NCBI GenBank assembly: GCA_031262525.1
Contig: JAISHM010000009.1
Location: forward strand, 6,583-70,582
Source: Rickettsiales bacterium
Lineage (GTDB): Bacteria > Pseudomonadota > Alphaproteobacteria > Rs-D84
DNA length: 64,000 nt
Reading direction: 5' to 3'
How positions within the stretch are numbered: position 1 is the first letter of the stretch; each line of letters opens with the position of its first letter. A model generated the notes under the pieces. The model searched no databases and had not been told where the DNA came from. It saw only the letters and a program-made list of their open reading frames with translations. A program made the position numbers and the translations under genes. Below are positions 14,074 to 46,027 of the stretch, piece by piece.

Positions 14074-14504
14074 TTTTTTGCCCTTTGTATCATTGCGATT
14101 GAGTTTTCTAGAATTATTTTTGCCGCAATTGAATCCAGTTCTTTTTTATCTTTTGTAATCTCAGACGCGGCGCTTGACGTCAGTGTTTCGTCTATAAAAA
14201 CAATCGGGACATCTGTTTTATCTGCCAAATCATTCGCAAAATCGCGCACCATTTTTGTTGTATCTGATTCCGTCCCGTCCATACGCAGCGGCAACCCAAT
14301 TACAATACCCTTTATATTATCATCACTAATAATTTTTATAATTTCATCTATCGCGCCCGACATACCACTGACCATAATTTGCGGACGCGTAAAAGTGTAT
14401 TCACGCGATACATCCGACACAGCAATGCCAACACGACGCGCCCCGGGGTCAATTCCAATCAGTCGCCCTGCATGCGGAAAATCCTTGAAATTTTCAATTA
14501 TCAT
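14070..14504 (-). CDS. ruvX: Putative pre-16S rRNA nuclease / Holliday junction resolvase-like RuvX (YqgF)
   Basis: It carries GIDPGARRVGIAVSD, the YqgF family N-terminal motif. The start is placed at the internal Met (MIIENF...) to avoid overlapping the divergent gatB start. Confidence 0.75.
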   Translation of the reverse strand: MIIENFKDFPHAGRLIGIDPGARRVGIAVSDVSREYTFTRPQIMVSGMSGAIDEIIKIISDDNIKGIVIGLPLRMDGTESDTTKMVRDFANDLADKTDVPIVFIDETLTSSAASEITKDKKELDSIAAKIILENSIAMIQRAKK

Positions 14505-16261: not shown

Positions 16262-17530
16262 ATGAAAACATTTTTTATCCAAACTTTTGGTTGTCAGATG
16301 AATGTCTATGACGGGCAAAAAATTGCCCAGATGCTGCGTGCGCGCAATATGACCCAGACAGAAAATTTAACTGATGCCGATGTAATTATTTTGAATACTT
16401 GCGCGGTGCGCGCCAAGGCAACGGACAAGGTATTTTCCGCCCTGGGAAGAATCAGAAAACAAAAAAAACCGGATGCTATTTTTGGAATTGTTGGGTGCGT
16501 TGCGCGCGAAAGCGGGCCGGACGCATTTCGCCGAATTCCCGAATTAAATTTTGTTCTGGGACCGCAATCATATCATAAATTACCAGAAATTTTGGATAAC
16601 CCTGATGCAAAATTATTAAACACTGATTTAAGTGGATTGGAAAAATTTGATGAATTGCCACACGAATCAGAATCTGGAAATATGGCGTATATTCCAATTC
16701 AAGAGGGTTGCGACCATTGTTGTACTTATTGTATTGTCCCATATACACGCGGACGCGAATTGTCCCGCCCTTTTGATGATGTAATGAACGATGTTAAAAC
16801 GGCAGCGATGGGCGGCGCAGTTGAAATATGCTTTCTGGGTCAAAATGTAAATGGTTATAAATTTTCATTGGCAAATTTAATCAAAGAGACAGCAAAAATA
16901 GAATCGGTTAAACGTATCAGATTTACATCCAGTTATCCAACAGAAATGACTGATGATTTAATAGACTTATTTTCGATCGAACCAAAATTATTACCATTTC
17001 TGAATATGCCAATACAAAGTGGCAGTCCCGATGTATTAAAGAGAATGAATCGTCCATATTCATTGGAACTATATATAAATATTATAAATAAATTGCGCGC
17101 TGCGCGCCCAGATATACAAATATCATCTGATTTTATTGTGGGATTCCCCGGCGAATCGGATGATGATTTTAAGCAAACTTGCGATATTGCAAAACAGATT
17201 AAATATATAAACTCTTACTCGTTCAAATACAGCCCACGTCCACATACGGCGGCCGCAATAATGCAAAATCAAGTTCCAGAAAACATAAAAAAAGAAAGAT
17301 TAAAAATTCTGGACGATATTTTGATGGAACAAAATCGCGCGTTTAATGAATCATGCATTGGATGCGCCCTGCCCTGTTTGTTCGAAGGTGACGATAAAAC
17401 TGGAAACAATATGATTTACCGCAGTCCTTATATGCAACAAGTTGTCGTATCTGGCAAGAATGGCGACACAATTGAAACAATAAAAATTACATCTGCGAAC
17501 AAATCATCTTTGCGTGGTAAAATCGTTTAA
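16262..17530 (+). CDS. miaB: tRNA-i6A37 methylthiotransferase MiaB
   Basis: It has the MTTase N-terminus (FIQTFGCQMNVYDG), the radical-SAM motif CDHCCTYC, and a C-terminal TRAM domain. Confidence 0.85.
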   Translation: MKTFFIQTFGCQMNVYDGQKIAQMLRARNMTQTENLTDADVIILNTCAVRAKATDKVFSALGRIRKQKKPDAIFGIVGCVARESGPDAFRRIPELNFVLGPQSYHKLPEILDNPDAKLLNTDLSGLEKFDELPHESESGNMAYIPIQEGCDHCCTYCIVPYTRGRELSRPFDDVMNDVKTAAMGGAVEICFLGQNVNGYKFSLANLIKETAKIESVKRIRFTSSYPTEMTDDLIDLFSIEPKLLPFLNMPIQSGSPDVLKRMNRPYSLELYINIINKLRAARPDIQISSDFIVGFPGESDDDFKQTCDIAKQIKYINSYSFKYSPRPHTAAAIMQNQVPENIKKERLKILDDILMEQNRAFNESCIGCALPCLFEGDDKTGNNMIYRSPYMQQVVVSGKNGDTIETIKITSANKSSLRGKIV

Positions 17531-17566
17531 CCCCAATAAACAATGCGTCAAGAACGAATTATAAAA

Positions 17567-18763
17567 TTAAAAATTAGTTGATAATTTAGCACCAAAATTA
17601 TAAAACAAATCATCACAAAATTTTGATATTCCACCATTTAACAACACCGAAAATTCATCCGCTGTGGAAGCAATCTGAATCCCACCACCGAATGATTTTA
17701 TATCACCACGCGCCATAGCGGATAAATAATAATCTGATTTTATCCCACCCGTTTCATCATAAAAACCTATGCGTCCGCCACCACCTGCATAAAATTCAGA
17801 CGATTTTGTATCGACAATTTTATCAGTTGAGTAATGAATACTGATATTTGGTTTAATATAAAATCCATTATAATCAACCAAACTATAATCCATTATAAAA
17901 TCGCCATATAATGTATAACCCGTTGGATTTTGTGCCGCCGAACCATCAGTATTAAATATCATATAATTATCTGTATTTATATCTGTTATTGCCGCGCCCA
18001 CACGCGCAAAAATTCCAACCGCGCCCAATATATTTACACTGGTCATTAAATTCGCGTTGTAAAAATTACCAGTAATTTGGTCATTATAATCTGTGGCCGA
18101 AAAGTTTCCATATTTTAACCCCAAACCAAAATAAAAGTCATCTGTGCCGACTATTTGTAGATTTGTCCCGATGGTCCATATATTTTTATTATCTGAAAAA
18201 ATTATATTTCCGTTCAACCCTGTATCAAATCCGAGGGCCCCATATCCGAATGCGTCCAGCGCGTTTGATAATTTCAACGGATATAATAATTTTTTATGAT
18301 TGTATGCGGCCGAATTTTTTATAATTCCAACAATTGCCCCACGGCTAAGCGCCGAATCAAGTGATTTCAATAACCCCATATTTTTACCACTTTGACGCGC
18401 GGTTGTTATAAACTTTGTATATGAACTTTCCGCACCAAAAATTTCTGTGTAATCTGTTCTCCGAATTAAATCCAGATATAAATTTCCACCCGCCCTGTAT
18501 GAGGACGCACTGAACATTTTATCTATATCTGGCGTCATCAAAGTAAAAAAATCAAGTTGTGTTATATTACGCACCAACAACATATCATCAGATAAAGACA
18601 CACCCGACAAATCCAGCCAGTACATATTACTATGTTGTGAATTTTGTATTGCATTTCCATAAACAACATCAAACGCCAATGACGAATTTGGTGCGCACAA
18701 ACCAACAACATAACACACACCGATACCCAATATACTCAAAAATTTACATCTATGATTTTTCAT
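17567..18763 (-). CDS. Outer-membrane beta-barrel protein (hypothetical)
   Basis: The signal peptide is at the internal Met (MKNHRCKFLSILGIGVCYVVGLCA). Alternating amphipathic strands and a C-terminal Phe (…LSTNF) are typical of OMPs. Confidence 0.5.
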   Translation of the reverse strand: MKNHRCKFLSILGIGVCYVVGLCAPNSSLAFDVVYGNAIQNSQHSNMYWLDLSGVSLSDDMLLVRNITQLDFFTLMTPDIDKMFSASSYRAGGNLYLDLIRRTDYTEIFGAESSYTKFITTARQSGKNMGLLKSLDSALSRGAIVGIIKNSAAYNHKKLLYPLKLSNALDAFGYGALGFDTGLNGNIIFSDNKNIWTIGTNLQIVGTDDFYFGLGLKYGNFSATDYNDQITGNFYNANLMTSVNILGAVGIFARVGAAITDINTDNYMIFNTDGSAAQNPTGYTLYGDFIMDYSLVDYNGFYIKPNISIHYSTDKIVDTKSSEFYAGGGGRIGFYDETGGIKSDYYLSAMARGDIKSFGGGIQIASTADEFSVLLNGGISKFCDDLFYNFGAKLSTNF

Positions 18764-18887
18764 AACCCCTCTCTGTAAATTATGAATTAAATCCGATGTA
18801 AATTTTACCCAGGGATAAAATCCCAATCAAGAAAAAATGTGTCAATACAAGATAAAAAAAATGCGGAGCCAATTCCCCGCTGTTTTC

Positions 18888-19322
18888 TTATTTTTGTTTT
18901 TTGTTATCTAAACACAAAACAATACACTCTGATACCACGGGTTCATAAACACAATTATATTCTTGATGTTTATACGGGCTATTTTGGTCAATCTTCAAAG
19001 TATTAGCCGAAATCGTTTTTTGACCAAAATCTGTCATAACAGAACATGCACTTTTATTAAAGTCATTATAAGGGCATTCTTTATTGGCGCAATATAACTC
19101 ATTTGTAAACCGGTCAAACCTCATTGAATCCTTTATATATTCACGCATCATATCTTTGATAACATTCTTTTTGGCGCAAAATTTGTTATACAAAGGTATC
19201 AAATCATACCTTTGCTCCCAGCATTTTTCATTGGTCAATTTACAAAGATTTATTCCTTGGGCATCAAACAAACAACATTTTGTATTGTCACATTGGAAAG
19301 CATAAACATAATGTTCGCACAT
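18888..19322 (-). CDS. Cysteine-rich hypothetical protein, 14 Cys in 144 aa, with no signal peptide
   Basis: An ATG ORF with Cys spacing C..C....CC and similar. No recognisable family. Confidence 0.45.
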   Translation of the reverse strand: MCEHYVYAFQCDNTKCCLFDAQGINLCKLTNEKCWEQRYDLIPLYNKFCAKKNVIKDMMREYIKDSMRFDRFTNELYCANKECPYNDFNKSACSVMTDFGQKTISANTLKIDQNSPYKHQEYNCVYEPVVSECIVLCLDNKKQK

Positions 19323-19381
19323 ATTGACCGCCTTTTATGTTGCTCTCTCCACAAAAAATACCCTAGGTTTATAAAAATCTC

Positions 19382-19459
19382 TGGGGCGAGATACGCGATT
19401 CGAACGCGCGACATTCAGTACCACAAACTGACGCTCTAACCAGCTGAGCTAATCCCGCC
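19382..19459 (-). tRNA. tRNA-His (anticodon GUG) with genomically encoded G-1 and 3' CCA
   Basis: A manual cloverleaf fold gives a D stem GCTC/GAGC, an anticodon stem TCAGT/ACTGA with loop TTGTGGT, a 7 bp acceptor stem GCGGGAT/ATCTCGC, G-1 paired to C73, and CCA. Confidence 0.85.
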
Positions 19460-19523
19460 ATAAAGTTTTCCAATTATAACCGTTATTTCAAAAAATTCAA
19501 CTATTATTTGCAAACAGACAAAG

Positions 19524-20378
19524 TCATAACTTTGTTGTTATTTTTTTCATATACTCAAAATCATCTGGGCGACATACGATTTGCAAATTCCTGACCCTGG
19601 CACCTTCTTTGAAACTAGTTGATGAAAAGTCAATAATTTTACCAGTATCATAATCCATAAAATTTATTCCCATACAATTTAACGCCGCCCATGAACCCGC
19701 CATATCCCATACATATGCATTAAAATAATATGCCCGTCCGCGGCCTGTCGCCATATATAATAAATGAACAACAGCGGAATAGAAACCAGAAATCGTATCG
19801 TTTTTTGAAAGATTTCTTACATTTATATAAATTGCCCTATTGTGAGCAGCCAATATCAAAGCCCGTGGATCAACGGGTTGTTTTTTTAGTTGCATAATTT
19901 TCTCGCTTTTTTTGAAAGCATTAGTTATCCAAAATGCGTTTTTGCCATCGCTGTAAACAATTTCACCCAATACTGGGGCATAAATAATACCCGCATAAGG
20001 CTTTCCATTACGCAGAATACCAACAGAAATACCAAACATTGGAATTTGTAAAGAATATGTTAGTGTGCCGTCAATTGGGTCCAAGACAAATTGCCATTCA
20101 TGCTTTAAAGCAGCGTCTATGGGTTTGTCGCCTAGTTTCTTGATATTTTCTTCATCTATAATAATATAATCCAGGTTTGAAAAATGTTCTTTTACAAAGC
20201 GCGCGAATAAATCGCTAATTGCCAAATCTGTTTCTGTAACAATATCTGTAATTTTTTCAGACTTGTAATTTTGAGTATGTTTCCCATGATAGTTCTTCAG
20301 TGCGATTCTTCCTGCGGATTTCATAAAATCAAAAAACAATGATAAATTTGGTATTGTTTTGGTCTTTTTCATATTCAT
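19524..20378 (-). CDS. Inositol monophosphatase family protein (SuhB-like)
   Basis: It has the IMPase motifs WQFVLDPIDGT and a metal-binding DPIDG. Confidence 0.75.
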   Translation of the reverse strand: MNMKKTKTIPNLSLFFDFMKSAGRIALKNYHGKHTQNYKSEKITDIVTETDLAISDLFARFVKEHFSNLDYIIIDEENIKKLGDKPIDAALKHEWQFVLDPIDGTLTYSLQIPMFGISVGILRNGKPYAGIIYAPVLGEIVYSDGKNAFWITNAFKKSEKIMQLKKQPVDPRALILAAHNRAIYINVRNLSKNDTISGFYSAVVHLLYMATGRGRAYYFNAYVWDMAGSWAALNCMGINFMDYDTGKIIDFSSTSFKEGARVRNLQIVCRPDDFEYMKKITTKL

Positions 20379-20445
20379 TATCCCAATAACTAATTAAATG
20401 CAAGTGCCATTATATTATAAAAACAGCGGAAAAGAAACAAAGTTT

Positions 20446-20796
20446 TTAATGTATCTTGACGCTAACTTGCCCGCAGACTTCATAATTATTTTTTGATTGC
20501 GTGGCTGAATATCGAATTACGCCAGCCGGAAAAGTTTGCACTAATTCTTTTGCACGCGGTAAATTCCGCACTAAAAATATCTTGTTTTTCACAGCCCGCA
20601 CTATCGGGTTTTTTATATTACGCAAACAATTTGATTTATACCAACTGATTAAATAAATTCTGTCGCCAATTATTTTTAAGTCAAATGGATAAAATTTACA
20701 ATCAAAGGGCTTTTCATCTTTACACAAACAACCACAATCACCACAATATTCGCACATCGCTGTATTTTTACGAAATTCTATATTTTCAGTAGGCAA
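20446..20796 (-). CDS. YkgJ/UPF0153-like Cys-cluster protein, with an uncertain start
   Basis: It has a CEYCGDCGCLC motif. The ORF starts at a TTG. A further CNYFGCNNCRDFCC motif lies in-frame upstream but has no start codon before the stop at 20878-20880. Confidence 0.4.
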   Translation of the reverse strand: MPTENIEFRKNTAMCEYCGDCGCLCKDEKPFDCKFYPFDLKIIGDRIYLISWYKSNCLRNIKNPIVRAVKNKIFLVRNLPRAKELVQTFPAGVIRYSATQSKNNYEVCGQVSVKIH

Positions 20797-20892
20797 AACA
20801 AAGGGGTATCCGATTTTATCCAGATGTCCACAACAAAAATCACGACAATTATTACATCCAAAGTAATTACATTGGGTTTACATTACGACACC

Positions 20893-21633
20893 TTAGCGTC
20901 CGCCGCGTCCTGTATATTCCCATGTGTCAAATACTTTCCTGTTTTCTGGAATCAGTATTTCTGACCATGGTAATCGGTGGCGCGCCAACTCTCTGCTGGC
21001 ATTGCCGGCAATAACCATTAAATCCAATTTACTATAAAACAATTCTTGTTTTACAACCGCTGGGTACAACTGATGTTCAAATGTCAATCCAATTTGTTTC
21101 AGTGTATCCAGGTTGATATTTTCCGGAATCATAAACCCAATTTGCGCAATTCTTTCCCCTGCATCAACCTGGGGGATTACATGATGCACTGTGCAACCCG
21201 TCGCCGTGTCCCCATCACGAAGCGCATCCGCATACGCATCGGTCGCACCGACATGTGCAAATGGAGTAATCGCGGGATGGATATTTATAATTTTATATTG
21301 TGATGCAATCTGTGGCGGCAAAATCAGCATATACCCCGCCAAAACAATTAAATCAAAATTATGCTTTTCTAAAAATTTTATTAAATTTGACCAATCGCGT
21401 GGTTTTGGAAACACGCCCGCCCCATCTGTTTTAATCAACGGACTGGGAATATATTGGGTTTCTATACTCAGTTTTTGTTTCATACGCGCATAAACGCCGG
21501 CCTTGTCGCCCGATTTATCCGAAGCGCAATAAAAATCCACAGGTAAATTATCCAGACGAATTGAACGGACCAACGCCTCGGCATTAGAGCCACTTCCCGA
21601 CGCCATAATTAAAACTTTTTTTCTATCTGCCAT
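20893..21633 (-). CDS. Formyltransferase, PurN (GAR transformylase) family, with a C-terminal extension
   Basis: It has the PurN family motifs VLIMASGSGSN, DLIVLAGYMLIL, IINIHPA and HHVIPQVDAGERIAQ. At 246 aa it is longer than canonical PurN. Confidence 0.6.
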   Translation of the reverse strand: MADRKKVLIMASGSGSNAEALVRSIRLDNLPVDFYCASDKSGDKAGVYARMKQKLSIETQYIPSPLIKTDGAGVFPKPRDWSNLIKFLEKHNFDLIVLAGYMLILPPQIASQYKIINIHPAITPFAHVGATDAYADALRDGDTATGCTVHHVIPQVDAGERIAQIGFMIPENINLDTLKQIGLTFEHQLYPAVVKQELFYSKLDLMVIAGNASRELARHRLPWSEILIPENRKVFDTWEYTGRGGR

Positions 21634-21772
21634 AATAAAACACCTTTATTTTCGTAAAGCATAGCATACAAATCCCAAAAATCAAGCAACCCAAGAACCA
21701 ATACTAAGAATGAAATCCTATAAGAAAAATTTCGGATTTATGGTAAAATTACACAAAGCAAAGGAATCGAAT

Positions 21773-22807
21773 ATGAAAAAAACAAACTTGTTTTTAATTA
21801 CTGGGGTTATGTGTGGGGCGGCGGTTACCGCATCTGGAAATTCAGGTATAATAATCCAAGAAAATTGGGCACCAATCTGGGCAGCGCCCGCACTGATTGG
21901 GGAACAAGCGCGAGGTTTAAGTTTGGACATACACGAACACGCAATGGTAAATGATGGTGTATGGCGCGATGATTCTGATTCCTTGGTATGGGGACGATAT
22001 AATTATACAGATGTAAAAAATTCAGATACTTTTGACGCGGCGGGCGACATTCATACTTTTAATATGGGGTTTGATGTACAATATGATGATAACGCGCGAC
22101 TGGGCGGATTTGTCAGCACACGACACGGAACTTTTGATATGACAGGCACCAGTATTATGGACGGAACAAACACGGCTGCGACAAAAACAAAAATATATTC
22201 TTATTTGTTGGGGGGATACAGTTATTTAACGTTTGACAATTTCTGGCTGACCAATGTTGCGTATGGCGGAATACACCAAACGAAATTGGATTACGAACCA
22301 GGAATAACAATGGAATCACTGGCCGCAGAATTTGGGACATCGGCGCAACTGGGGTATAAATTCCGTTTTGATGAGCAATTTACGATTTCGCCGATTGTGA
22401 ATGCGCGCTATACAATGATTACTTACGGGGATTTGGGGGTGGATAACGCCTCATATGTAAAAATGAAGGCAACCCCGAAAATGGACCTGGAAGACTTTGA
22501 TAATCTACACCGATTTGACGTGGACATCGGGATAAAGTTTGCGCAAACATTTGGAACAACTGACGGAGTGCATGCGACATTGCATTTAACGCCATCGGTC
22601 GCACGCAGTTTTAACGACACCTTTTATTCCGAATTTGTAGGTATGGGGGATTACCATTTTAATCTGAATAAAACGATTTGGCGTATTGGCGGTGGAGTTG
22701 TTATGTCGGTCTATAATTACCTGGATTTGGAATTTGGTGCGCGATATAATCAGTCGCACGGATATAAACGCACAGACTTTACATTGGGCGCGAAATTGAT
22801 GTTCTGA
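21773..22807 (+). CDS. Outer-membrane beta-barrel protein (hypothetical)
   Basis: The ATG at 21773 gives the signal peptide MKKTNLFLITGVMCGAAVTASG. The protein is beta-strand-rich and ends in a C-terminal Phe (…GAKLMF). Confidence 0.5.
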   Translation: MKKTNLFLITGVMCGAAVTASGNSGIIIQENWAPIWAAPALIGEQARGLSLDIHEHAMVNDGVWRDDSDSLVWGRYNYTDVKNSDTFDAAGDIHTFNMGFDVQYDDNARLGGFVSTRHGTFDMTGTSIMDGTNTAATKTKIYSYLLGGYSYLTFDNFWLTNVAYGGIHQTKLDYEPGITMESLAAEFGTSAQLGYKFRFDEQFTISPIVNARYTMITYGDLGVDNASYVKMKATPKMDLEDFDNLHRFDVDIGIKFAQTFGTTDGVHATLHLTPSVARSFNDTFYSEFVGMGDYHFNLNKTIWRIGGGVVMSVYNYLDLEFGARYNQSHGYKRTDFTLGAKLMF

Positions 22808-22833
22808 TACAGAATACATTCTTATAAAACAAC

Positions 22834-22862
22834 TTGCATTTTATACGGCGTATGATATTATT
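22834..22862 (+). promoter_or_regulatory. Candidate sigma70 promoter for tRNA-Ala
   Basis: TTGCAT, a 16 bp spacer, then TATTAT, with the tRNA 5' end 11 nt downstream. Confidence 0.4.
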
Positions 22863-22872
22863 TTTCTCATTC

Positions 22873-22949
22873 GGGGTTGTAGCTCAGTTGATTAGAGCGC
22901 CTCGCTGGCAGCGAGGAGGTCGTGGGTTTGAGTCCCATCAACTCCACCA
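22873..22949 (+). tRNA. tRNA-Ala (anticodon GGC) with encoded CCA
   Basis: A manual fold gives an acceptor GGGGTTG/CAACTCC with the G3:U70 alanine identity pair, an anticodon stem CCTCG/CGAGG with loop CTGGCAG, and a T loop TTTGAGT. Confidence 0.85.
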
Positions 22950-22980
22950 AATAAATTTAATAACCCTGGGGGGAATTCCG

Positions 22981-23922
22981 ATGAAAAAAATCCTTGTATC
23001 TATATTTGGAATGTTGGTGGCGCTGCCTGTATTGGCGACCGATGACACAATTGCGAACGCGACAGAATTGACTGAATCTGTGGCAACTGCGACGGACACA
23101 ATAAAATCAGACATTGGCGCGGCGGCAACCGAAATAAACGCTGCAAATCCGGACGCGAAATTTCCAAACGGGTTAAAATTTGGTATTGGTGCATCGGCAA
23201 CTGGTGGGGTTGATGGCTTTGTCGGATATAATAATAAAAAGTTTGATTCTTTTTGGTGGAAGCGATTGGGTCTGCGCGTCAATTATTCAACAACATCACC
23301 AGTTAAGTCACTGATTGCGCGCGGTGTTGATTCTGCGATTGGCGATGGGGTTGAATTGGGCGATGATATTAAAATAGACAGCGGAAAAATCAGTGCAACA
23401 AACTTTGGCGCAGTGGTTGATTTTTATCCATTCGGGGATACTTGGTTCCTGGGCGGGTGGAGAATTTCTGGCGGTTATGTCAGCGGGAAACTGAATGCGG
23501 ATACAAACCTGGCTGGGGAAATCCCGGGGATTCCGGGCGCCCCAATTGAATTTACATTGGGTCATACAAAATATCGTTATAATGACAGTAATTTTACAGG
23601 CAATGCAAAAGTAGATTGGAAGTATTCTGGGCCATACGCTGGGACTGGGTTTGATTTGGGTTTATTTGCGGGGATAAAAATTTATCTGGATGCGGGCGTT
23701 GTATTTACCAGCAAAACTGCGCAACTGGGGCTGGATATTCCGTTGAATAATAAATTAGAAAAGTTGAATACATCAACTGGACTATGGCAAAATGTTGAAA
23801 TTGCGGGATTACAATCAGAATTTGATAAAATAAAGGCTGATGCAATCGCCGAAGGTCAGGAAGAGTTAGATAAATTGACATTCTTTCCGATTATTAAATT
23901 GGGGCTGATGTATCGTTTTTAA
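22981..23922 (+). CDS. Outer-membrane beta-barrel protein (hypothetical surface antigen)
   Basis: The track ORF N-terminus overlaps the tRNA, so the start is reassigned to the ATG at 22981, which gives the signal peptide MKKILVSIFGMLVALPVLA. The protein ends in a C-terminal Phe (…LMYRF). Confidence 0.55.
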   Translation: MKKILVSIFGMLVALPVLATDDTIANATELTESVATATDTIKSDIGAAATEINAANPDAKFPNGLKFGIGASATGGVDGFVGYNNKKFDSFWWKRLGLRVNYSTTSPVKSLIARGVDSAIGDGVELGDDIKIDSGKISATNFGAVVDFYPFGDTWFLGGWRISGGYVSGKLNADTNLAGEIPGIPGAPIEFTLGHTKYRYNDSNFTGNAKVDWKYSGPYAGTGFDLGLFAGIKIYLDAGVVFTSKTAQLGLDIPLNNKLEKLNTSTGLWQNVEIAGLQSEFDKIKADAIAEGQEELDKLTFFPIIKLGLMYRF

Positions 23923-23925
23923 CAG

Positions 23926-23958
23926 AAAAAAAAATCCGCCATTCGGCGGATTTTTTTT
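23926..23958. terminator. Rho-independent terminator, bidirectional
   Basis: An A9 run, then the hairpin TCCGCCATTCGGCGGA, then a T8 run. Confidence 0.65.
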
Positions 23959-23964
23959 GTTTTA

Positions 23965-24312
23965 TTATTTTTCAAATTCGCGTTCTTTTCCAGATGTGTT
24001 GCGAAAAAACCATCCATATTCGTCCAATACTTCCTGGTATAAAACATCTGCATCTAATCGTTCGTTCCACCCGGCAACAGTCGGCCACGCGGTCAAAAAC
24101 CCCTTAAAAGTGCGTGTCTTTTTAAGCGCTTTATCAGCCATCCAGTAATACATACTATCTGGATGAGATGATTTTTTTATATGTGACGCTTCATCCAACA
24201 ACATAAACCACAAAGTACTATTACTCAGCAACCATGCCAGAAATATCGGCAAAATAACCTTGTTTGCTTTTTTTATAATTTTACGACCTACATTATATTT
24301 CAACCCTGTCAT
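23965..24312 (-). CDS. Hypothetical small membrane protein
   Basis: A 115 aa ORF with one TM helix (ILPIFLAWLLSNSTLWFMLL). Confidence 0.4.
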   Translation of the reverse strand: MTGLKYNVGRKIIKKANKVILPIFLAWLLSNSTLWFMLLDEASHIKKSSHPDSMYYWMADKALKKTRTFKGFLTAWPTVAGWNERLDADVLYQEVLDEYGWFFRNTSGKEREFEK

Positions 24313-24398
24313 TATTTATCCTTTGTTTTATTACTATGATTATATCATAACAAATAATATATGTTTGTCAATAAACAGATTTTATATTTTATACACTC

Positions 24399-24426
24399 TT
24401 GCTTTTTATAGAAAAGCCTGTATAAT
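24399..24426 (+). promoter_or_regulatory. Candidate sigma70 promoter for tRNA-Lys
   Basis: TTGCTT, a 16 bp spacer, then a perfect TATAAT, with the tRNA starting 10 nt downstream. Confidence 0.45.
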
Positions 24427-24436
24427 TAGGCAAATC

Positions 24437-24512
24437 GGGTGCGTAGCTCAGCTGGTAGAGCAAGTGACTCTTAATCACTGGGTCTGGGGTTCGAGTCCCC
24501 ACGCGCCCACCA
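24437..24512 (+). tRNA. tRNA-Lys (anticodon CUU) with encoded CCA
   Basis: A manual fold gives an acceptor GGGTGCG/CGCGCCC, a D stem GCTC/GAGC, an anticodon stem AGTGA/TCACT with loop CTCTTAA, and a T loop TTCGAGT. Confidence 0.85.
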
Positions 24513-24694
24513 CTTAAAAAGATTGAATTTATGCCGTTTTAACGGATTTTTTTATTTTTTATAAAAAATACACTGGATTCTTTCGGGATTATTTTCTATG
24601 ATGGTAATGGAAGGAAAAGATGCCAAAATTCAATGATTTTGATATGGAAGCTTAGAAAGATACACTTGGCGATGTCTGGACGGATTCGCTGTGG

Positions 24695-25342
24695 ATGATT
24701 GACCGACGAGACAATAGCGGCAAGCACAGCGGTTTTTATCACGGCAACTTTGTTCCGCAAATCCCACACCAATTTATAAGGCGTTTTACCAAGGCGGGCG
24801 ATACCGTGCTTGACCCGTTTATGGGTTCTGGCACAACGGCGTATGAGTGCGAAACTCTTGCGCGAAACTTTGTCGGAATTGATAACACTTCAACACAATT
24901 TAATCAACGGATTCGTTCTGATATCAAAGATTTTTATAAAAATAAAAAATGCGTGATGCTTGGGGTAAATGGTTTTTCCGAAAATACCAAAATTGAAATT
25001 GACCACAAAGACGGACGCAAAAATGACGACCGCGTATCAGATTTAGCGGGGCAAAAGTTAGAGGATTTTCAACCTCTCTGCAAAGCCGCCAATGACGCAA
25101 AACGCCATTTCTGCAAAAAGTGCAAGGAAACAAATTGTCGTTGGAATGCAAAAAACATTTTGGGCAATCCATATCCTTTTTATGCGGGCGACGAACATTA
25201 TGACGAAAAATTGGGCTGTGTTGGGTGCTATCAATACGACCCTGTGGAATACAGAAAGCAATCCGTGAAACGCATTGCGACAGAGGCATCAAAGAACACA
25301 TCCGATTTTATTATGAAAAAACTTTATGGCGACGACGAATGA
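24695..25342 (+). CDS. Truncated N4/N6 DNA methyltransferase C-terminus (motifs X and I) joined to an HNH-like nuclease domain; possible pseudogene or fusion
   Basis: The N-terminal 55 aa, YHGNFVPQIPHQFIRRFTKAGDTVLDPFMGSGTT...FVGID, match the C-terminal AdoMet motif (HPTQKP...VLDPFxGSGTT) of PF01555-type methylases. The DPPY catalytic part is missing. An in-frame TAG lies at 24653 just upstream. The C-terminal part has an HNH-like EIDHKDG...N...LCKAANDAKRH motif and a Cys cluster. Confidence 0.5.
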   Translation: MIDRRDNSGKHSGFYHGNFVPQIPHQFIRRFTKAGDTVLDPFMGSGTTAYECETLARNFVGIDNTSTQFNQRIRSDIKDFYKNKKCVMLGVNGFSENTKIEIDHKDGRKNDDRVSDLAGQKLEDFQPLCKAANDAKRHFCKKCKETNCRWNAKNILGNPYPFYAGDEHYDEKLGCVGCYQYDPVEYRKQSVKRIATEASKNTSDFIMKKLYGDDE

Positions 25343-26370
25343 ATTACATCGGGTCTAAACTATCTTTGTTGGAATTTTTAGACGCGGGCATAAAATCCGT
25401 TGTTGGCGATGATGCAAAAAATTGCCACACTTTTTGCGACTTGTTTGCTGGCACGGGTGCGGTTGGGACATTTTTCAAGAAAAAGAAAAAATTCAAGGTT
25501 ATTGCGAACGATTTGCAATACTATGGCTATGTCTTGAATCGCCATTATATTGGCAATCATCGTGAGTTAAAGTTTGCTGGACTTAGTGGACACACAGCGG
25601 AACAGGTTTGTGAATATCTGAATAATTTACCAGCACAGCACGGATTTATTTATAACAATTATGCGTCTGGTGGCGGCAGTGAGCGTCTTTATTTCAGCGA
25701 TGAAAACGCCGGTCGTTGCGATGCAATTCGTGCGCAAATTGAAAATTGGAAAGCGGACGGCAAAATCAATGAAGACGAGTATTATTTCTTGCTGACGACT
25801 TTACTTGAAAACATAGACAAGGTTGCAAATACTGCGTCCGTTTATGGTGCGTTCCTTAAAAAATTAAAATCGTCTGCATTGCGTCCGCTGGAAATGCGCC
25901 CAGCACCGCTGTTTATAAATGATGCGGAACACAATGTTTATAATGCCGATGCAAATCAATTGGTGCGTGAAATTGAAACGGATATTTTATACCTGGACCC
26001 GCCGTATAACGAACGCCAATATGCCAGCAATTATCATATGTTGGAAACCATCGCAAAATATGATGCGCCAGAAATTAAAGGCAAAACAGGCCTGCGGAAT
26101 TATGCGGCGCAAAAATCTGATTATTGTTCGCGCGCCAGTGTAAAGCGGGCTTTTGCAGATTTAATTAAAAACGCAAAGGCAAAATATATTTTCTTGTCTT
26201 ATAATAACGAGGGGTTAATGACTCTGGACGATGTGCGTGAGATTATGAGCACCCGCGGAGAATATGGTGTCTTTACACAAGATTACAGACGGTTCAAGGC
26301 AGATTCCGCCCGCAATAATTCCGCCGATAAAACCACCGAATACTTGCATTGGCTTCGGGTTGAAAATTAA
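25339..26370 (+). CDS. Dam-family (D12 class, alpha) N6-adenine DNA methyltransferase
   Basis: It has MNYIGSK, motif I FCDLFAGTGAVG, and the catalytic LDPPYN. Its ATG overlaps the upstream stop in an ATGA arrangement. Confidence 0.8.
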   Translation: MNYIGSKLSLLEFLDAGIKSVVGDDAKNCHTFCDLFAGTGAVGTFFKKKKKFKVIANDLQYYGYVLNRHYIGNHRELKFAGLSGHTAEQVCEYLNNLPAQHGFIYNNYASGGGSERLYFSDENAGRCDAIRAQIENWKADGKINEDEYYFLLTTLLENIDKVANTASVYGAFLKKLKSSALRPLEMRPAPLFINDAEHNVYNADANQLVREIETDILYLDPPYNERQYASNYHMLETIAKYDAPEIKGKTGLRNYAAQKSDYCSRASVKRAFADLIKNAKAKYIFLSYNNEGLMTLDDVREIMSTRGEYGVFTQDYRRFKADSARNNSADKTTEYLHWLRVEN

Positions 26371-26607
26371 AATCATATTCATCAATTTCTAATCATTTTA
26401 TTAAAATTATTGTTAAGAGCGGGTTAATATTTTATAAATTGCGATTTACCATTTGCAGCCCACAGAAACAAAATATTCTGATATAATAATATGATAGGGT
26501 TTGGGACATATAGCGGACATAATGGGGACATATTTGAATAAAAAGTCAGCTAGTCAGTATAAAATCCGCAGATTTCTGCGCCTTTAACTATGCACGGCCT
26601 TTTAATT

Positions 26608-26650
26608 CTTAATCACTGGGTCTGGGGTTCGAGTCCCCACGCGCCCACCA
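26608..26650 (+). repeat. Direct repeat of the 3' 43 nt of tRNA-Lys (attR-like islet boundary)
   Basis: An exact copy of tRNA-Lys positions 34-76 including CCA. No 5' half of a tRNA is present here. Confidence 0.8.
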
Positions 26651-44498: not shown

Positions 44499-45392
44499 AT
44501 GATTGAAAAGAATAAAATACATTTGCAAGATTGTATTATTGGCATAAAGGAATTGCCAAACGATTCTATGGATATTATTATCGCTGACCCGCCTTATAAT
44601 ATCGGAAAAGATTTTGGAAATAATTCTGATAAACGCAGTGATAGGGATTATATTGAGTGGGTAAAACTATGGTTGCTTGAATGTCAGCGTGTGTTAAAAC
44701 CAACAGGAACAATGTTTATTTACGGATTTGATGAAATCTTAGCCCACATTTCCGTTTTATTACCGATTGAACGGCAAAGGTGGCTTATCTGGTATTACAC
44801 AAATAAAAATGTTCCGTCATTAAATTTTTGGCAAAGAAGCCACGAATCTATAATTTGTTATTGGCGTGATAAACCATTATTTAATCGTGACGAAGTTCGT
44901 GAACCTTATACTGACGGATTCTTAAATGGCAGCGCTGGACGCACAAGACCCGCAGGGAAAGGCAGATTCGCCGCAAATGGTGGTAAAGAAACAATTTACC
45001 AAGCAAATGAAAACGGCGCTTTACCGCGCGATGTTATTTCCCAATCAACGCTTGCTGGTGGTGCTGCATTAAAAGAAAGAATCATTTATTGTAAAGATTG
45101 TAAATGTATTGTTGAACCAACAAAACGAAAAGAACACGATGGGCATAATTTAATAATCCACCCAACGCAAAAACCTTTGGAACTTACCGACAGACTTATA
45201 AAATCGTGCAAACCAAACAAAAAATATAATGTTTTAATTCCATTTTGTGGCAGCGGTTCAGAATGTATATCTGTATTGCAAAATGGTGGTAATTATATTG
45301 CGTATGAAATCAACCCTGATTATGTCTTGCTTGCTGAAAAAAATATAGAAAGTATGAATAAGAAAAAACAACCAAATTTATTTGGAGAATAA
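44499..45392 (+). CDS. Beta-class N4/N6 DNA methyltransferase (PF01555 type)
   Basis: It has the catalytic IIADPPYN near the N-terminus and the AdoMet motif HPTQKPLELTDRLI...VLIPFCGSGSE at the C-terminus. The local region is AT-rich. Confidence 0.8.
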   Translation: MIEKNKIHLQDCIIGIKELPNDSMDIIIADPPYNIGKDFGNNSDKRSDRDYIEWVKLWLLECQRVLKPTGTMFIYGFDEILAHISVLLPIERQRWLIWYYTNKNVPSLNFWQRSHESIICYWRDKPLFNRDEVREPYTDGFLNGSAGRTRPAGKGRFAANGGKETIYQANENGALPRDVISQSTLAGGAALKERIIYCKDCKCIVEPTKRKEHDGHNLIIHPTQKPLELTDRLIKSCKPNKKYNVLIPFCGSGSECISVLQNGGNYIAYEINPDYVLLAEKNIESMNKKKQPNLFGE

Positions 45393-45394
45393 AA

Positions 45395-46027
45395 ATGCAG
45401 AAATTACTAAATAAGGGAAATTTTAAGAAAATAGATGAAGTGTTTTTAACCAAAAGCATTGACGCTTTTCAGCAAATTACAAACATTCAAACAGAATATG
45501 AAAAACTGGATACAGATACTTTTATGAATGAAGTTAGGGATTCTATTGCTGCAAAGTATCTACACTATACCCACGTAAACATAGAAAAACACGGCTTTGA
45601 TGCTAGAAGAAGTTCCGCAAACAAAGACTTTGAATTTGATTATTTAGAAGTAAAATCCGCAAGTTATGATGCAAAATCTTGGCAAGCAACTTTTAATGAT
45701 ACAAATTTAGAAAAAGCGAATTTATTCAAGGAGAAAAATATTTATTTGGCTTTATCTGTTTGGCGTGCCGCATCTGAATTATTGTTTGTTGTTTATGGTA
45801 AAAACAAGGAAATTGGTAATTTTTTAGAGGCAAAAGTTAAATGGTTTAAAAAAGGAAATACTGTTCGTAGCACGCAATCCATAACCATTTCAGATTTAAT
45901 TTGTAAATATGGATTCAAAGTATATGCTGTGCATAAAACACCAAATGAGATTTTTGATTTGTTTCAGGTAAGAAATGGTTGTAGAAAAATACCAAGAGAT
46001 TCTATATTATCAATTACGGATTTATAG
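45395..46027 (+). CDS. Putative type II restriction endonuclease partner of the methylase
   Basis: A 210 aa ORF starting 3 bp after the methylase stop. It has a PD-(D/E)xK-like element, DFEFDYLEVK. No other homology was recognised. Confidence 0.45.
   Translation: MQKLLNKGNFKKIDEVFLTKSIDAFQQITNIQTEYEKLDTDTFMNEVRDSIAAKYLHYTHVNIEKHGFDARRSSANKDFEFDYLEVKSASYDAKSWQATFNDTNLEKANLFKEKNIYLALSVWRAASELLFVVYGKNKEIGNFLEAKVKWFKKGNTVRSTQSITISDLICKYGFKVYAVHKTPNEIFDLFQVRNGCRKIPRDSILSITDL

What the first reader, a model, noticed from the sequence alone, without database searches (positions are those of the whole stretch)
24437..26650. Small restriction-modification islet inserted into the 3' end of tRNA-Lys, closed by a 43 bp direct repeat
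The 3' 43 nt of tRNA-Lys(CUU) (24470..24512) are repeated exactly at 26608..26650, with only accessory genes in between: a methylase/HNH ORF and a Dam-family methylase. This is the classic attL/attR footprint of an integrative element targeting a tRNA gene. Here the integrase is absent and the leftmost gene is truncated, which suggests a decayed integrative element whose R-M cargo was retained.
Basis: partly seen in the sequence, partly recalled or inferred. Interest (0 to 1): 0.6.

Follow-up and report, generated by a model that had tools for sequence, protein, structure and literature searches.

The report
Disarmed restriction-modification islet at tRNA-Lys
A 2.1 kb piece of foreign DNA carrying a broken CATG-type restriction-modification gene set sits behind a tRNA-Lys gene, bracketed by a perfect 44 bp copy of the tRNA's 3' part; this is the usual scar of an integrating mobile element, here without its integrase, and it is an ordinary though tidy example.

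Summary
[quoted passage not shown] That copy is a bare fragment, not a second tRNA. Between the copies is a three-gene NlaIII/IceA-type (CATG) cassette, M1-R-M2, found intact in unrelated bacteria. Here it is disarmed. M1 has an early TGG->TAG stop, and a ~0.78 kb in-frame deletion fuses the M1 N-terminus to the last 152 residues of the endonuclease. The D12 adenine methylase M2 is intact and conserved. So the 'truncated leftmost gene' is an internal cassette deletion, not a cut at the islet edge. No integrase, resolvase or transposase was found in the islet, its arms or ~50 ORFs across the 64 kb. The nearest relatives (NlpD ~55% identical) lack the islet and the duplicated fragment, but their locus is rearranged, so a strict empty-site test was impossible. 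Best reading (~0.65): a tRNA-targeting integrase inserted the DNA and the integrase module is now missing, giving an att-flanked, CIME-like remnant with an orphan methylase. Main rival: R-M insertion with long target duplication. This is a new member of a known kind, of low to moderate interest.

The parts
24437..24512 (+). Intact tRNA-Lys(CUU) gene. Under the integration model, its 3' part from about nt 33 onward is supplied by the inserted DNA.
   Evidence: ARAGORN; Rfam tRNA 69 bits
24469..24512 (+). Direct repeat copy 1 (attL core): tRNA nt 33-76, anticodon loop to CCA
   Evidence: Exact 44-nt match to 26607-26650; 0 of 100 shuffles give a match
24513..24592 (+). Left arm: 80 bp of non-cassette DNA. 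It holds a weak 4-bp hairpin plus a T-run directly after the tRNA, with no significant similarity to the flanks of related cassettes.
   Evidence: blastn homology to L027 begins at 24593; local alignment no better than shuffles; hairpin z = -1.5; no Pfam hit in any frame
24620..24883 (+). Remnant of methylase gene M1 (N6_N4 class): N-terminal ~88 codons including SAM motif I (FMGSG). TGG->TAG nonsense at 24653-24655.
   Evidence: 92% aa identity to the L027 M1 N-terminus over 86 codons, with Trp in L027 where the window has TAG. The start (MPKFNDF..) and Shine-Dalgarno sequence are conserved in L027 and L029.
24884..25342 (+). Remnant of endonuclease gene R (ICEA/NlaIII family): last 152 codons, still holding the EIDHKDG...N HNH-type motif. 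It is fused in frame to M1 at 24883/24884. The longest ORF (24695-25342, 215 aa) spans the fusion.
   Evidence: Pfam ICEA 3.8e-75, profile positions 75-218 of 218; tblastn to L022 R aa 76-227 at 79% and to L027 R aa 73-220 at 73%; junction quasi-homology GGTATAGATA/GGTTTTAATA
25339..26370 (+). M2: intact D12-class N6-adenine DNA methyltransferase (343 aa), probably CATG-specific. Its start overlaps the upstream stop codon (ATGA).
   Evidence: Pfam MethyltransfD12 1.1e-47 over the full profile; 83% identity, ungapped, to P0255; motifs FAGTG and DPPY present; dN/dS ~0.06 against L027
26371..26606 (+). Right arm: 236 bp of non-coding, non-cassette DNA
   Evidence: No similarity to the downstream flanks of related cassettes; no Pfam hit in any frame
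26504..26532 (+). Three GGACATA motifs spaced exactly 11 bp apart, a candidate phased protein-binding array (arm-type Int/Xis sites, iterons or operators)
   Evidence: Only 2 phased 7-mer triples in 64 kb against 0.01 expected. Analogous arrays occur in phage contigs, one of them next to a primase gene.
26607..26650 (+). Direct repeat copy 2 (attR core): displaced 3' fragment of tRNA-Lys, 23 nt from the nlpD stop codon

Best explanation
The 2,138-bp unit is DNA that a tRNA-targeting tyrosine integrase of the anticodon-loop class inserted into tRNA-Lys(CUU). The incoming DNA carried its own copy of tRNA nt 33-76, which now completes the gene (attL). The host's original 3' part was displaced to the far end, next to nlpD (attR). 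The cargo was a three-gene NlaIII/IceA-type (CATG) restriction-modification cassette, M1-R-M2, that circulates among unrelated bacteria. The integrase module is no longer there. It was either deleted or was only ever supplied in trans, so what remains is an att-flanked, integrase-less islet, CIME-like and in principle still recombinable by a cognate integrase. The cassette was later disarmed by a Trp->stop change in M1 and a ~0.78-kb in-frame deletion between short similar motifs, which fused the M1 N-terminus to the R C-terminus. That leaves M2 as a conserved solitary adenine methylase. Shown: the repeat and its geometry, the cassette's identity and lesions, the absence of recombinase genes, and absence of the islet from relatives. 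Inferred: integrase involvement, the order of events, CATG specificity, and M2 activity.
For: The exact 44-nt repeat runs from U33 to the CCA end in the same orientation as the tRNA, with the fragment downstream. This is the geometry that defines tDNA islands: 3,760 of 3,919 Islander islands have a 3' fragment and 2,083 have an anticodon-centred attP (PMC4383910). Furuta et al. also describe it as 'anticodon loop through 3' end' (PMC2853133). The fragment is not a second tRNA. The cargo is foreign. The same cassette occurs intact in at least three other genomic contexts (L027/28; L029-31, Deferribacterales; L020-26, Treponema-type). M2 is 83% identical to L027's copy, while the host's NlpD has no relative above ~55%. 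Four relatives with conserved PBP2-RecJ-LolA-TatB-TatC-NlpD synteny lack the cassette, and where they have a tRNA-Lys(CUU) it has a single 3' half. About 316 bp inside the repeats (left arm 80 bp, right arm 236 bp) belongs neither to the cassette nor to the host flanks, and it contains a highly non-random 11-bp-phased triple motif. A compact 'type II R + M + integrase' unit in a tRNA gene with perfect 45/45 repeats is already documented in Xylella fastidiosa (PMC2853133). Cassette lesions. M2 intact with dN/dS ~0.06.
Against: No integrase gene, fragment or deletion scar was found in the islet, its arms or ~50 ORFs of the 64-kb window. No attP-bearing relative of the element turned up: the 44-mer has 0 hits in the viral and metagenome collections, and the islet DNA has no blastn hit in plasmids or phages. 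The other copies of this cassette are not flanked by tRNAs or long repeats, so the cassette clearly also moves by other routes. Perfect 44/44 identity is just as well explained by a duplication. The strict empty site (tRNA-Lys followed directly by nlpD) was not observed in any genome. In the two relatives that have tRNA-Lys nearby, it points the opposite way relative to nlpD. By GC and GC3 the islet is indistinguishable from host genes. The phased array is not shown to bind an integrase, and similar arrays in phages look like replication iterons.
Confidence: 0.65

Rival explanations
1. R-M 'insertion with long target duplication' (Nobusato/Furuta/Kobayashi type). The cassette inserted by an integrase-independent, still undefined mechanism that duplicates tens of base pairs of target, and the duplicated target happened to be the last 44 nt of tRNA-Lys.
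For: The insert contains only R-M genes, is under 20 kb, has a repeat over 30 bp and has no integrase. These are the operational criteria of Furuta et al. 2010, who report 46-bp examples (PMC2853133). Perfect identity of the two copies is automatic under duplication. The cassette family moves without tRNA or att features elsewhere. R-M remnants acting as mobile elements have been reported in another intracellular gut symbiont (PMC4760077).
Against: Both repeat boundaries coincide with tRNA landmarks: the start is in the 7-nt anticodon loop and the end is exactly at the CCA terminus. That is expected for attP/attB identity blocks and is very improbable for an arbitrary duplication. Furuta et al. 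themselves treat tRNA-3'-end repeats as a signature of site-specific recombination. About 316 bp of extra non-cassette DNA, with a phased repeat array, lies inside the repeats. None of the four other cassette contexts examined shows a long flanking duplication.
Confidence: 0.2
2. Two tandem tRNA-Lys genes once existed, and the cassette's arrival (or a deletion) removed the 5' half of the second copy. On this view the repeat is a relic of gene duplication, not an att site.
For: Tandem tRNA duplications are common (general knowledge). The two copies are identical.
Against: No trace of the 5' half lies upstream of copy 2 (6/32 identity). Relatives have a single tRNA-Lys(CUU) at this locus. The truncation point falling in the anticodon loop and the identity ending exactly at CCA would both have to be coincidences.
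Confidence: 0.05
3. Assembly artefact. In the metagenome the 2.1-kb unit exists as a separate (for example circular) molecule sharing the 44-mer, and it was threaded into the chromosomal contig of this MAG.
For: The source is a metagenome-assembled genome. In the k=31 Logan assembly the unit is a separate 2,154-bp contig whose ends are the last and first 30 nt of the repeat. That topology cannot separate an integrated copy from a circular one.
Against: That break pattern is exactly what a 44-nt repeat produces at k=31. The 80.7-kb NCBI/JGI contig spans both junctions, and ordinary reads are much longer than 44 nt (inference; the reads were not examined). A free 2.1-kb circle with no replication gene is implausible.
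Confidence: 0.05

Closest known systems
Compact 'type II R + M + integrase' unit integrated in a tRNA gene (Xylella fastidiosa Temecula1 PD1606-PD1608; Furuta, Abe & Kobayashi 2010, PMC2853133)
   Same: A small insert consisting essentially of a type II R-M system, flanked by perfect ~45-bp direct repeats of the 3' end of a tRNA gene (45/45 there, 44/44 here).
   Different: The Xylella unit keeps an integrase-like gene next to the repeat, although it is very weakly similar to integrases. The window islet has none. The R-M families differ, and here the R gene is destroyed.
[quoted passage not shown] 2017, PMC5704250; class recorded in ICEberg 2.0, PMC6323972)
   Same: Bounded by intact att-like repeats at the 3' end of a target gene, with no recombinase or transfer genes and only cargo retained. 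tRNA-Lys 3' ends are a known target for such elements.
   Different: CIMEs are defined relative to known parent ICEs/IMEs, mostly in Firmicutes, and mobilization by accretion has been shown experimentally. Here no parent element or cognate integrase is known, nothing has been tested, and the size (2.1 kb) is unusually small.
Islander-type tDNA genomic islands (Hudson, Lau & Williams 2015, PMC4383910; sublocation classes from Williams 2002)
   Same: A regenerated tRNA plus a displaced 3' fragment in the same orientation marks the endpoints. The identity block starts in the anticodon loop (class A).
   Different: Islander requires an integrase gene inside the candidate, so this islet fails that filter. 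It is also far smaller than typical islands.
Helicobacter pylori iceA1-hpyIM locus / Neisseria lactamica NlaIII system (CATG)
   Same: An ICEA/NlaIII-family endonuclease gene immediately upstream of a D12-class adenine methylase. In H. pylori the endonuclease gene is usually mutated while the methylase persists (PMC13340068, PMC3261200, both citing Xu et al. 2002).
   Different: The cassette here has an extra upstream N6_N4-class methylase (M1), and in Treponema-type copies a fourth 380-aa gene. Inactivation is by an M1::R in-frame deletion. The locus is att-flanked at a tRNA.
R-M insertion with long target duplication (Nobusato et al. 2000; Furuta et al. 2010)
   Same: An insert containing only R-M genes, bracketed by direct repeats over 30 bp, with no mobility gene.
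   Different: In those cases the repeat boundaries are unrelated to tRNA landmarks. Here they coincide with the anticodon loop and the CCA end.

Membership tests
tDNA-integrated genomic island (Islander definition) | Intact tRNA gene plus a cognate tDNA fragment on the same replicon, in the same orientation | tested here: met
   tRNA-Lys at 24437-24512 (+); 44-nt 3' fragment at 26607-26650 (+)
tDNA-integrated genomic island (Islander definition) | Identity block at a recognised sublocation (anticodon loop, T-loop or 3' junction) running to the 3' end of the tRNA | tested here: met
   The block starts at U33 and ends at CCA76, which is class 'A' of PMC4383910
tDNA-integrated genomic island (Islander definition) | Tyrosine integrase gene (PF00589) inside the interval | tested here: not met
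   Pfam on both ORFs and on all stop-free segments of both arms gave no integrase, and none was found in ~50 ORFs of the window
tDNA-integrated genomic island (Islander definition) | Absent from related genomes (empty site with an uninterrupted tRNA and native flank) | tested here: inconclusive
   Relatives L008-L012 lack the cassette and any duplicated fragment. However, tRNA-Lys lies ~5 kb from nlpD in the opposite relative orientation and the interval is non-homologous, so no true empty site is available.
CIME (cis-mobilizable element) | Flanked by attL and attR of a site-specific integrative element | tested here: met
   Perfect 44-nt direct repeats with att-type geometry. That an integrase recognises them is inferred, not shown.
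CIME (cis-mobilizable element) | Lacks integration/excision and transfer genes | tested here: met
   Only M1::R and M2 lie inside, with no recombinase or relaxase domains
CIME (cis-mobilizable element) | Derived from, and mobilizable by, an identifiable ICE/IME with the same att specificity | not testable with these tools
   No related element carrying the 44-mer or the arms was found.
NlaIII/IceA1-type (CATG) type II R-M system | ICEA/NlaIII-family endonuclease gene | tested here: inconclusive
   The Pfam ICEA hit is strong (3.8e-75) but covers only profile positions 75-218 of 218. The N-terminal ~75 residues are replaced by a methylase fragment, so the family is present but the gene is not intact.
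NlaIII/IceA1-type (CATG) type II R-M system | Adjacent cognate D12-class N6-adenine methylase | tested here: met
   Pfam MethyltransfD12 over the full profile; FAGTG and DPPY motifs; ATGA overlap with the R stop codon
NlaIII/IceA1-type (CATG) type II R-M system | CATG recognition and methylation | not testable with these tools
   Indirect only: family assignment; 0 CATG in the islet (5.6-7.4 expected); CATG obs/exp 0.46 in the window and 0.22-0.65 in hosts of intact cassettes, against 0.91 in cassette-free relatives. This genome avoids many palindromes, so the signal is not specific.
R-M insertion with long target duplication (Furuta et al. 2010 criteria) | Insert with R and M homologs only, under 20 kb, flanking duplication over 30 bp, no other mobile element | tested here: met
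   2.1 kb, M1::R + M2 only, 44-bp repeat, no integrase or transposase
R-M insertion with long target duplication (Furuta et al. 2010 criteria) | Repeat is not a tRNA 3'-end att-type sequence, and a single copy sits at the empty site of a compared genome | tested here: not met
   The repeat is exactly tRNA nt 33-76, which the authors treat as indicating site-specific recombination. No empty-site genome is available.

The most novel reading that the evidence does not exclude
The islet is not a dead remnant but a minimal, integrase-free integrative module: an att core, short arms with a phased protein-binding array, and an R-M cassette. A tRNA-Lys-specific integrase encoded elsewhere in the genome or community would move it in trans. 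That would make it a 2.1-kb 'cassette' form of R-M mobility at tRNA sites in an intracellular-type Rickettsiales. In addition, the recurrent in-frame M1::R deletions (here and, independently, in P0016) would be a favoured way to disarm the nuclease while keeping translation coupled into the methylase.
Probability: 0.12. Interest if true: 0.55.

Novelty: new member of a known kind. Interest (0 to 1): 0.27.

Why it matters
It is a clean, fully delimited example of how restriction-modification genes enter and then decay in a lineage labelled Rickettsiales that has no close sequenced relatives. Entry was at a tRNA att site, the nuclease was lost through an internal deletion, and an orphan adenine methylase was retained. 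Orphan methylases can take on epigenetic roles, and the strong palindrome avoidance in this genome suggests long-standing pressure from restriction systems. Integrase-less att-flanked islets are systematically missed by island finders that require an integrase, so cases like this one help show what those tools overlook. Nothing here challenges current understanding.

Tried and rejected
1. Circular or excised form. The stand-alone 2,154-bp Logan contig L004 looked like a circle, but its ends are the last and first 30 nt of the repeat, exactly the k=31 break expected at a 44-nt repeat. It is uninformative.
2. Empty-site test through NlpD relatives. The genome-contig scan returned only distant LysM proteins. 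Homolog-based contexts showed conserved synteny on the tatC side only, so no true empty site was available.
3. Searching for the element elsewhere. The 44-mer has no hit in viral or metagenome contigs, and the islet DNA has no hit in plasmids or phages.
4. GGACATA x3 as an integrase arm site. Seven viral contigs carry similar 11-bp arrays but share no other homology, and one array sits beside a primase gene, which looks iteron-like. This is analogy only and does not support an att-arm reading.
5. Left-arm homology to the region upstream of the L027 cassette. It looked plausible in MAFFT but was no better than shuffles.
6. Hairpins after the tRNA and after nlpD as terminators. z-scores were -1.3 to -1.5, not distinctive.
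7. Integrase remnants in the arms. No Pfam hit even at E <= 10.
8. Compositional evidence of foreignness. Islet GC and GC3 fall within the host range.
9. dN/dS to detect relaxed constraint on the remnants. dS is saturated, so this is uninformative beyond showing that M2 is conserved.
10. The viral relative of M2 (L032) is a phage orphan methylase among recombination genes, not this cassette.
11. Natural methylase-nuclease fusion protein. Rejected, because intact relatives have separate M1 and R genes and a second chimera (P0016) has a different junction.
Full report
**Observation**

ARAGORN finds three tRNA genes in the window, one of which is tRNA-Lys(CUU) at 24437-24512 on the + strand. Rfam's tRNA model scores 69 bits there. 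The repeat finder and a pattern search show that 24469-24512 recurs exactly at 26607-26650. There are two matches in the window and none in 100 dinucleotide-preserving shuffles.

The repeat begins at tRNA nucleotide 33, the U just before the CTT anticodon, and ends at the terminal CCA. The second copy is only a fragment. ARAGORN calls no gene there, Rfam gives a 12.5-bit partial match, and the 32 nt upstream match the tRNA 5' half at 6 of 32 positions, which is chance level. The other two tRNAs in the window have no displaced fragments.

**What lies between the repeats**

Pfam shows that the left ORF (24695-25342) is composite. It has the tail of an N6_N4 methylase profile followed by ICEA (NlaIII/IceA1 endonuclease family) positions 75-218 of 218. 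The right ORF is a complete D12-class adenine methylase. Its real start is ATG 25339, which overlaps the upstream stop codon as ATGA.

Homolog searches and context look-ups recovered the intact ancestor of this gene set in other organisms.

- Treponema-type contigs L020-L026 carry M1 (N6_N4 methylase, 261 aa), R (ICEA, 228 aa), X (380 aa, no Pfam) and M2 (D12, 333 aa).
- The closer relatives carry a three-gene form, M1-R-M2. These are L027/L028, where M2 is 83% identical to the window's, and L029-L031 from a Deferribacterales bacterium, where it is 73% identical.

Mapping these proteins onto the window gives the following.

- M1 starts at ATG 24620. Its Shine-Dalgarno sequence and the N-terminal peptide MPKFNDF.. 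are conserved in L027 and L029.
- Codon 12 of M1 is TAG (24653-24655) where L027 has TGG.
- After '...NFVGID' (ending at 24883) the reading frame continues directly into R residue ~73-76 (24884 onward) and runs to the R stop codon at 25340-25342.
- About 776 nt are missing relative to L027.
- The junction lies in a short quasi-homology (GGTATAGATA in M1, GGTTTTAATA in R), as expected for an illegitimate-recombination deletion.

A second, independent chimera (P0016, loci L005-L007) joins the same two genes at a different point, also in frame and also followed by M2 with the ATGA overlap. The 'methylase/HNH ORF' is thus a deletion product of two neighbouring genes, not a natural fusion and not a gene truncated by the islet boundary.

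M2 aligns end to end with its relatives without gaps, keeps motifs FAGTG and DPPY, and has dN/dS of about 0.06 against L027. dS is saturated, so the comparison says little about the remnants beyond the absence of further lesions.

The ICEA family is the NlaIII/IceA1 CATG endonuclease family. Its partner hpyIM is a CATG-specific methylase, and in H. pylori the nuclease gene is usually mutated while the methylase persists (PMC13340068 and PMC3261200, both citing Xu et al. 2002). The same decay pattern is seen here.

**Foreign origin and boundaries**

DNA-level homology to the L027 cassette covers window 24593-24884 (84% identity) and 24894-26352 (77% identity). Inside the repeats this leaves a left arm of 80 bp (24513-24592) and a right arm of 236 bp (26371-26606). 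Neither matches the flanks of any related cassette better than shuffled controls do, and neither contains any recognisable coding remnant.

The right arm holds three GGACATA motifs spaced exactly 11 bp apart (26504-26532). Only two phased 7-mer triples exist in the 64 kb, against about 0.01 expected. Similar arrays occur in seven viral contigs, with no other homology to the window. One of these lies beside a primase gene and looks like replication iterons. I therefore treat the array as a probable protein-binding site of unknown partner, not as proof of an att arm.

The source is a metagenome-assembled genome labelled Rickettsiales. Its housekeeping proteins have no near relatives, and the best NlpD match is about 55% identical. 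M2, by contrast, has an 83% relative in a different genomic context, which points to horizontal transfer. GC content and GC3 do not distinguish the islet from host genes.

**Comparison with relatives**

Four relatives share the PBP2-RecJ-LolA-TatB-TatC-NlpD block, but beyond nlpD they carry different glycosyltransferase clusters. Two of them have a tRNA-Lys(CUU) about 5 kb further on, pointing the opposite way relative to nlpD and followed by a MiaB-like gene. In the window that gene lies at 16262-17530. None of the relatives has the cassette or a duplicated tRNA 3' half.

The islet is therefore lineage-specific. The MiaB...nlpD interval is a rearranged hot region, however, so a strict empty site is unavailable. 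Two relatives' contigs end inside this tRNA, at nt 33 and nt 37. That is suggestive of heterogeneity at the same sublocation, but it is weak evidence.

**Search for a recombinase**

Pfam scans covered the islet ORFs, the stop-free segments of both arms, the immediate neighbours and about 50 ORFs across the whole window. They found housekeeping genes and one further N6_N4 methylase, but no integrase, resolvase or transposase. The 44-mer is absent from the viral and metagenome collections, and the islet DNA has no match among plasmids or phages. Other copies of the cassette are not flanked by tRNAs or long repeats.

**Interpretation**

[quoted passage not shown] In Islander, 3,760 of 3,919 islands have a 3' fragment and 2,083 have an anticodon-centred attP (PMC4383910). 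Furuta et al. 2010 describe a compact type II R + M + integrase unit in a Xylella tRNA gene with perfect 45/45 repeats, and they treat tRNA-3'-end repeats as a signature of site-specific recombination (PMC2853133).

The most likely history has three steps:

1. An integrase inserted DNA carrying the M1-R-M2 cassette into tRNA-Lys.
2. The integrase module was lost, or it only ever acted in trans.
3. The cassette was disarmed, leaving an orphan methylase.

The result fits the definition of a CIME: attL and attR retained, integration and transfer genes gone (PMC5704250). I put this at about 0.65.

The main rival, at about 0.2, is Kobayashi-type R-M insertion with long target duplication. The islet meets the operational criteria for that class: only R-M genes, under 20 kb, a repeat over 30 bp, and no integrase. 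Perfect identity of the repeats would also follow naturally. Against it, both repeat boundaries coincide with tRNA landmarks, and about 316 bp of unrelated DNA lies inside the repeats.

A relic of a tandem tRNA duplication and an assembly artefact are each unlikely, at about 0.05. The separate 2,154-bp Logan contig simply reflects a k=31 break at the 44-nt repeat.

**Verdict**

The att-footprint reading is the best explanation, but its supporting argument (a gene truncated at the left edge) is wrong, past presence of an integrase is inferred rather than shown, and the methylase is NlaIII-type rather than Dam. This is a new member of a known kind (tRNA-integrated R-M islet, CIME-like remnant), well delimited but unsurprising. 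Interest is about 0.27.

Noticed in passing
window 1-64000 (whole window): Extreme avoidance of short palindromes (observed/expected): GATC 7/205 (0.03), AGCT 0.17, TCGA 0.22, GTAC 0.28, ACGT 0.37, CATG 0.46, GGCC 0.44, CCGG 0.52. The nearest relatives (L008, L009, L011, L012) show much weaker avoidance or none (GATC 0.53, CATG 0.91, AGCT 0.98). This suggests long exposure of the lineage to many type II restriction systems.
   Followed up: partly
window 44499-46027 (+): A second DNA methylase gene (N6_N4 class, full-length Pfam hit, 297 aa) is followed at a 2-nt gap by a 210-aa ORF with no Pfam or NCBIfam hit. This may be another R-M pair or an orphan methylase.
   Followed up: partly
L010 (ends at 14270) and L011 (ends at 14169): Contigs from two independent assemblies of relatives end inside their tRNA-Lys(CUU) gene, at tRNA nt 37 and nt 33. 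That is the same anticodon-loop sublocation where the window's repeat begins. It may reflect strain heterogeneity or integration at this site in related organisms.
   Followed up: no
window 16262-24436 compared with L008/L009 9300-15700: The interval between the MiaB-like gene and nlpD is completely different between the window and its relatives. The window has ~7 kb holding tRNA-His, tRNA-Ala, an autotransporter, an OMP-like ORF and others. The relatives have glycosyltransferase clusters, and their tRNA-Lys is inverted relative to nlpD. The region is a rearrangement hot spot.
   Followed up: partly
L005:1736-2599, L006:1612-2475, L007:205-1068 (protein P0016): An independent in-frame M1::R chimera (287 aa) with a different junction: it keeps methylase motifs I and IV and only the last ~110 residues of ICEA. 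It is also followed by M2 with the ATGA overlap. Disarming of this cassette by in-frame M1-R deletions is therefore recurrent.
   Followed up: partly
L022:6684-7826 (and L020, L021, L023-L026): Treponema-type versions of the cassette carry an extra conserved 380-aa gene (X) between R and M2, with no Pfam or NCBIfam match. Its role in the system is unknown.
   Followed up: no
window 24695-24697: The ATG that opens the 215-aa ORF replaces an Ile codon of L027's M1 and lies 39 nt after the premature TAG. It could allow re-initiation and so keep translation coupled into M2. This is speculative.
   Followed up: no
window 22834-22949: The long ORF listed from 22834 (TTG start) overlaps tRNA-Ala(GGC) at 22873-22949, so its 5' part is spurious. 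The real OMP-like gene probably starts at an internal Met downstream of the tRNA.
   Followed up: no
L015:10680-10790 and L019:9340-9420: Phage contigs carry 11-bp tandem arrays with a GGGGACATA core. In L015 there is an inverted set upstream and a primase-like gene directly adjacent, so these are probably replication iterons.
   Followed up: partly
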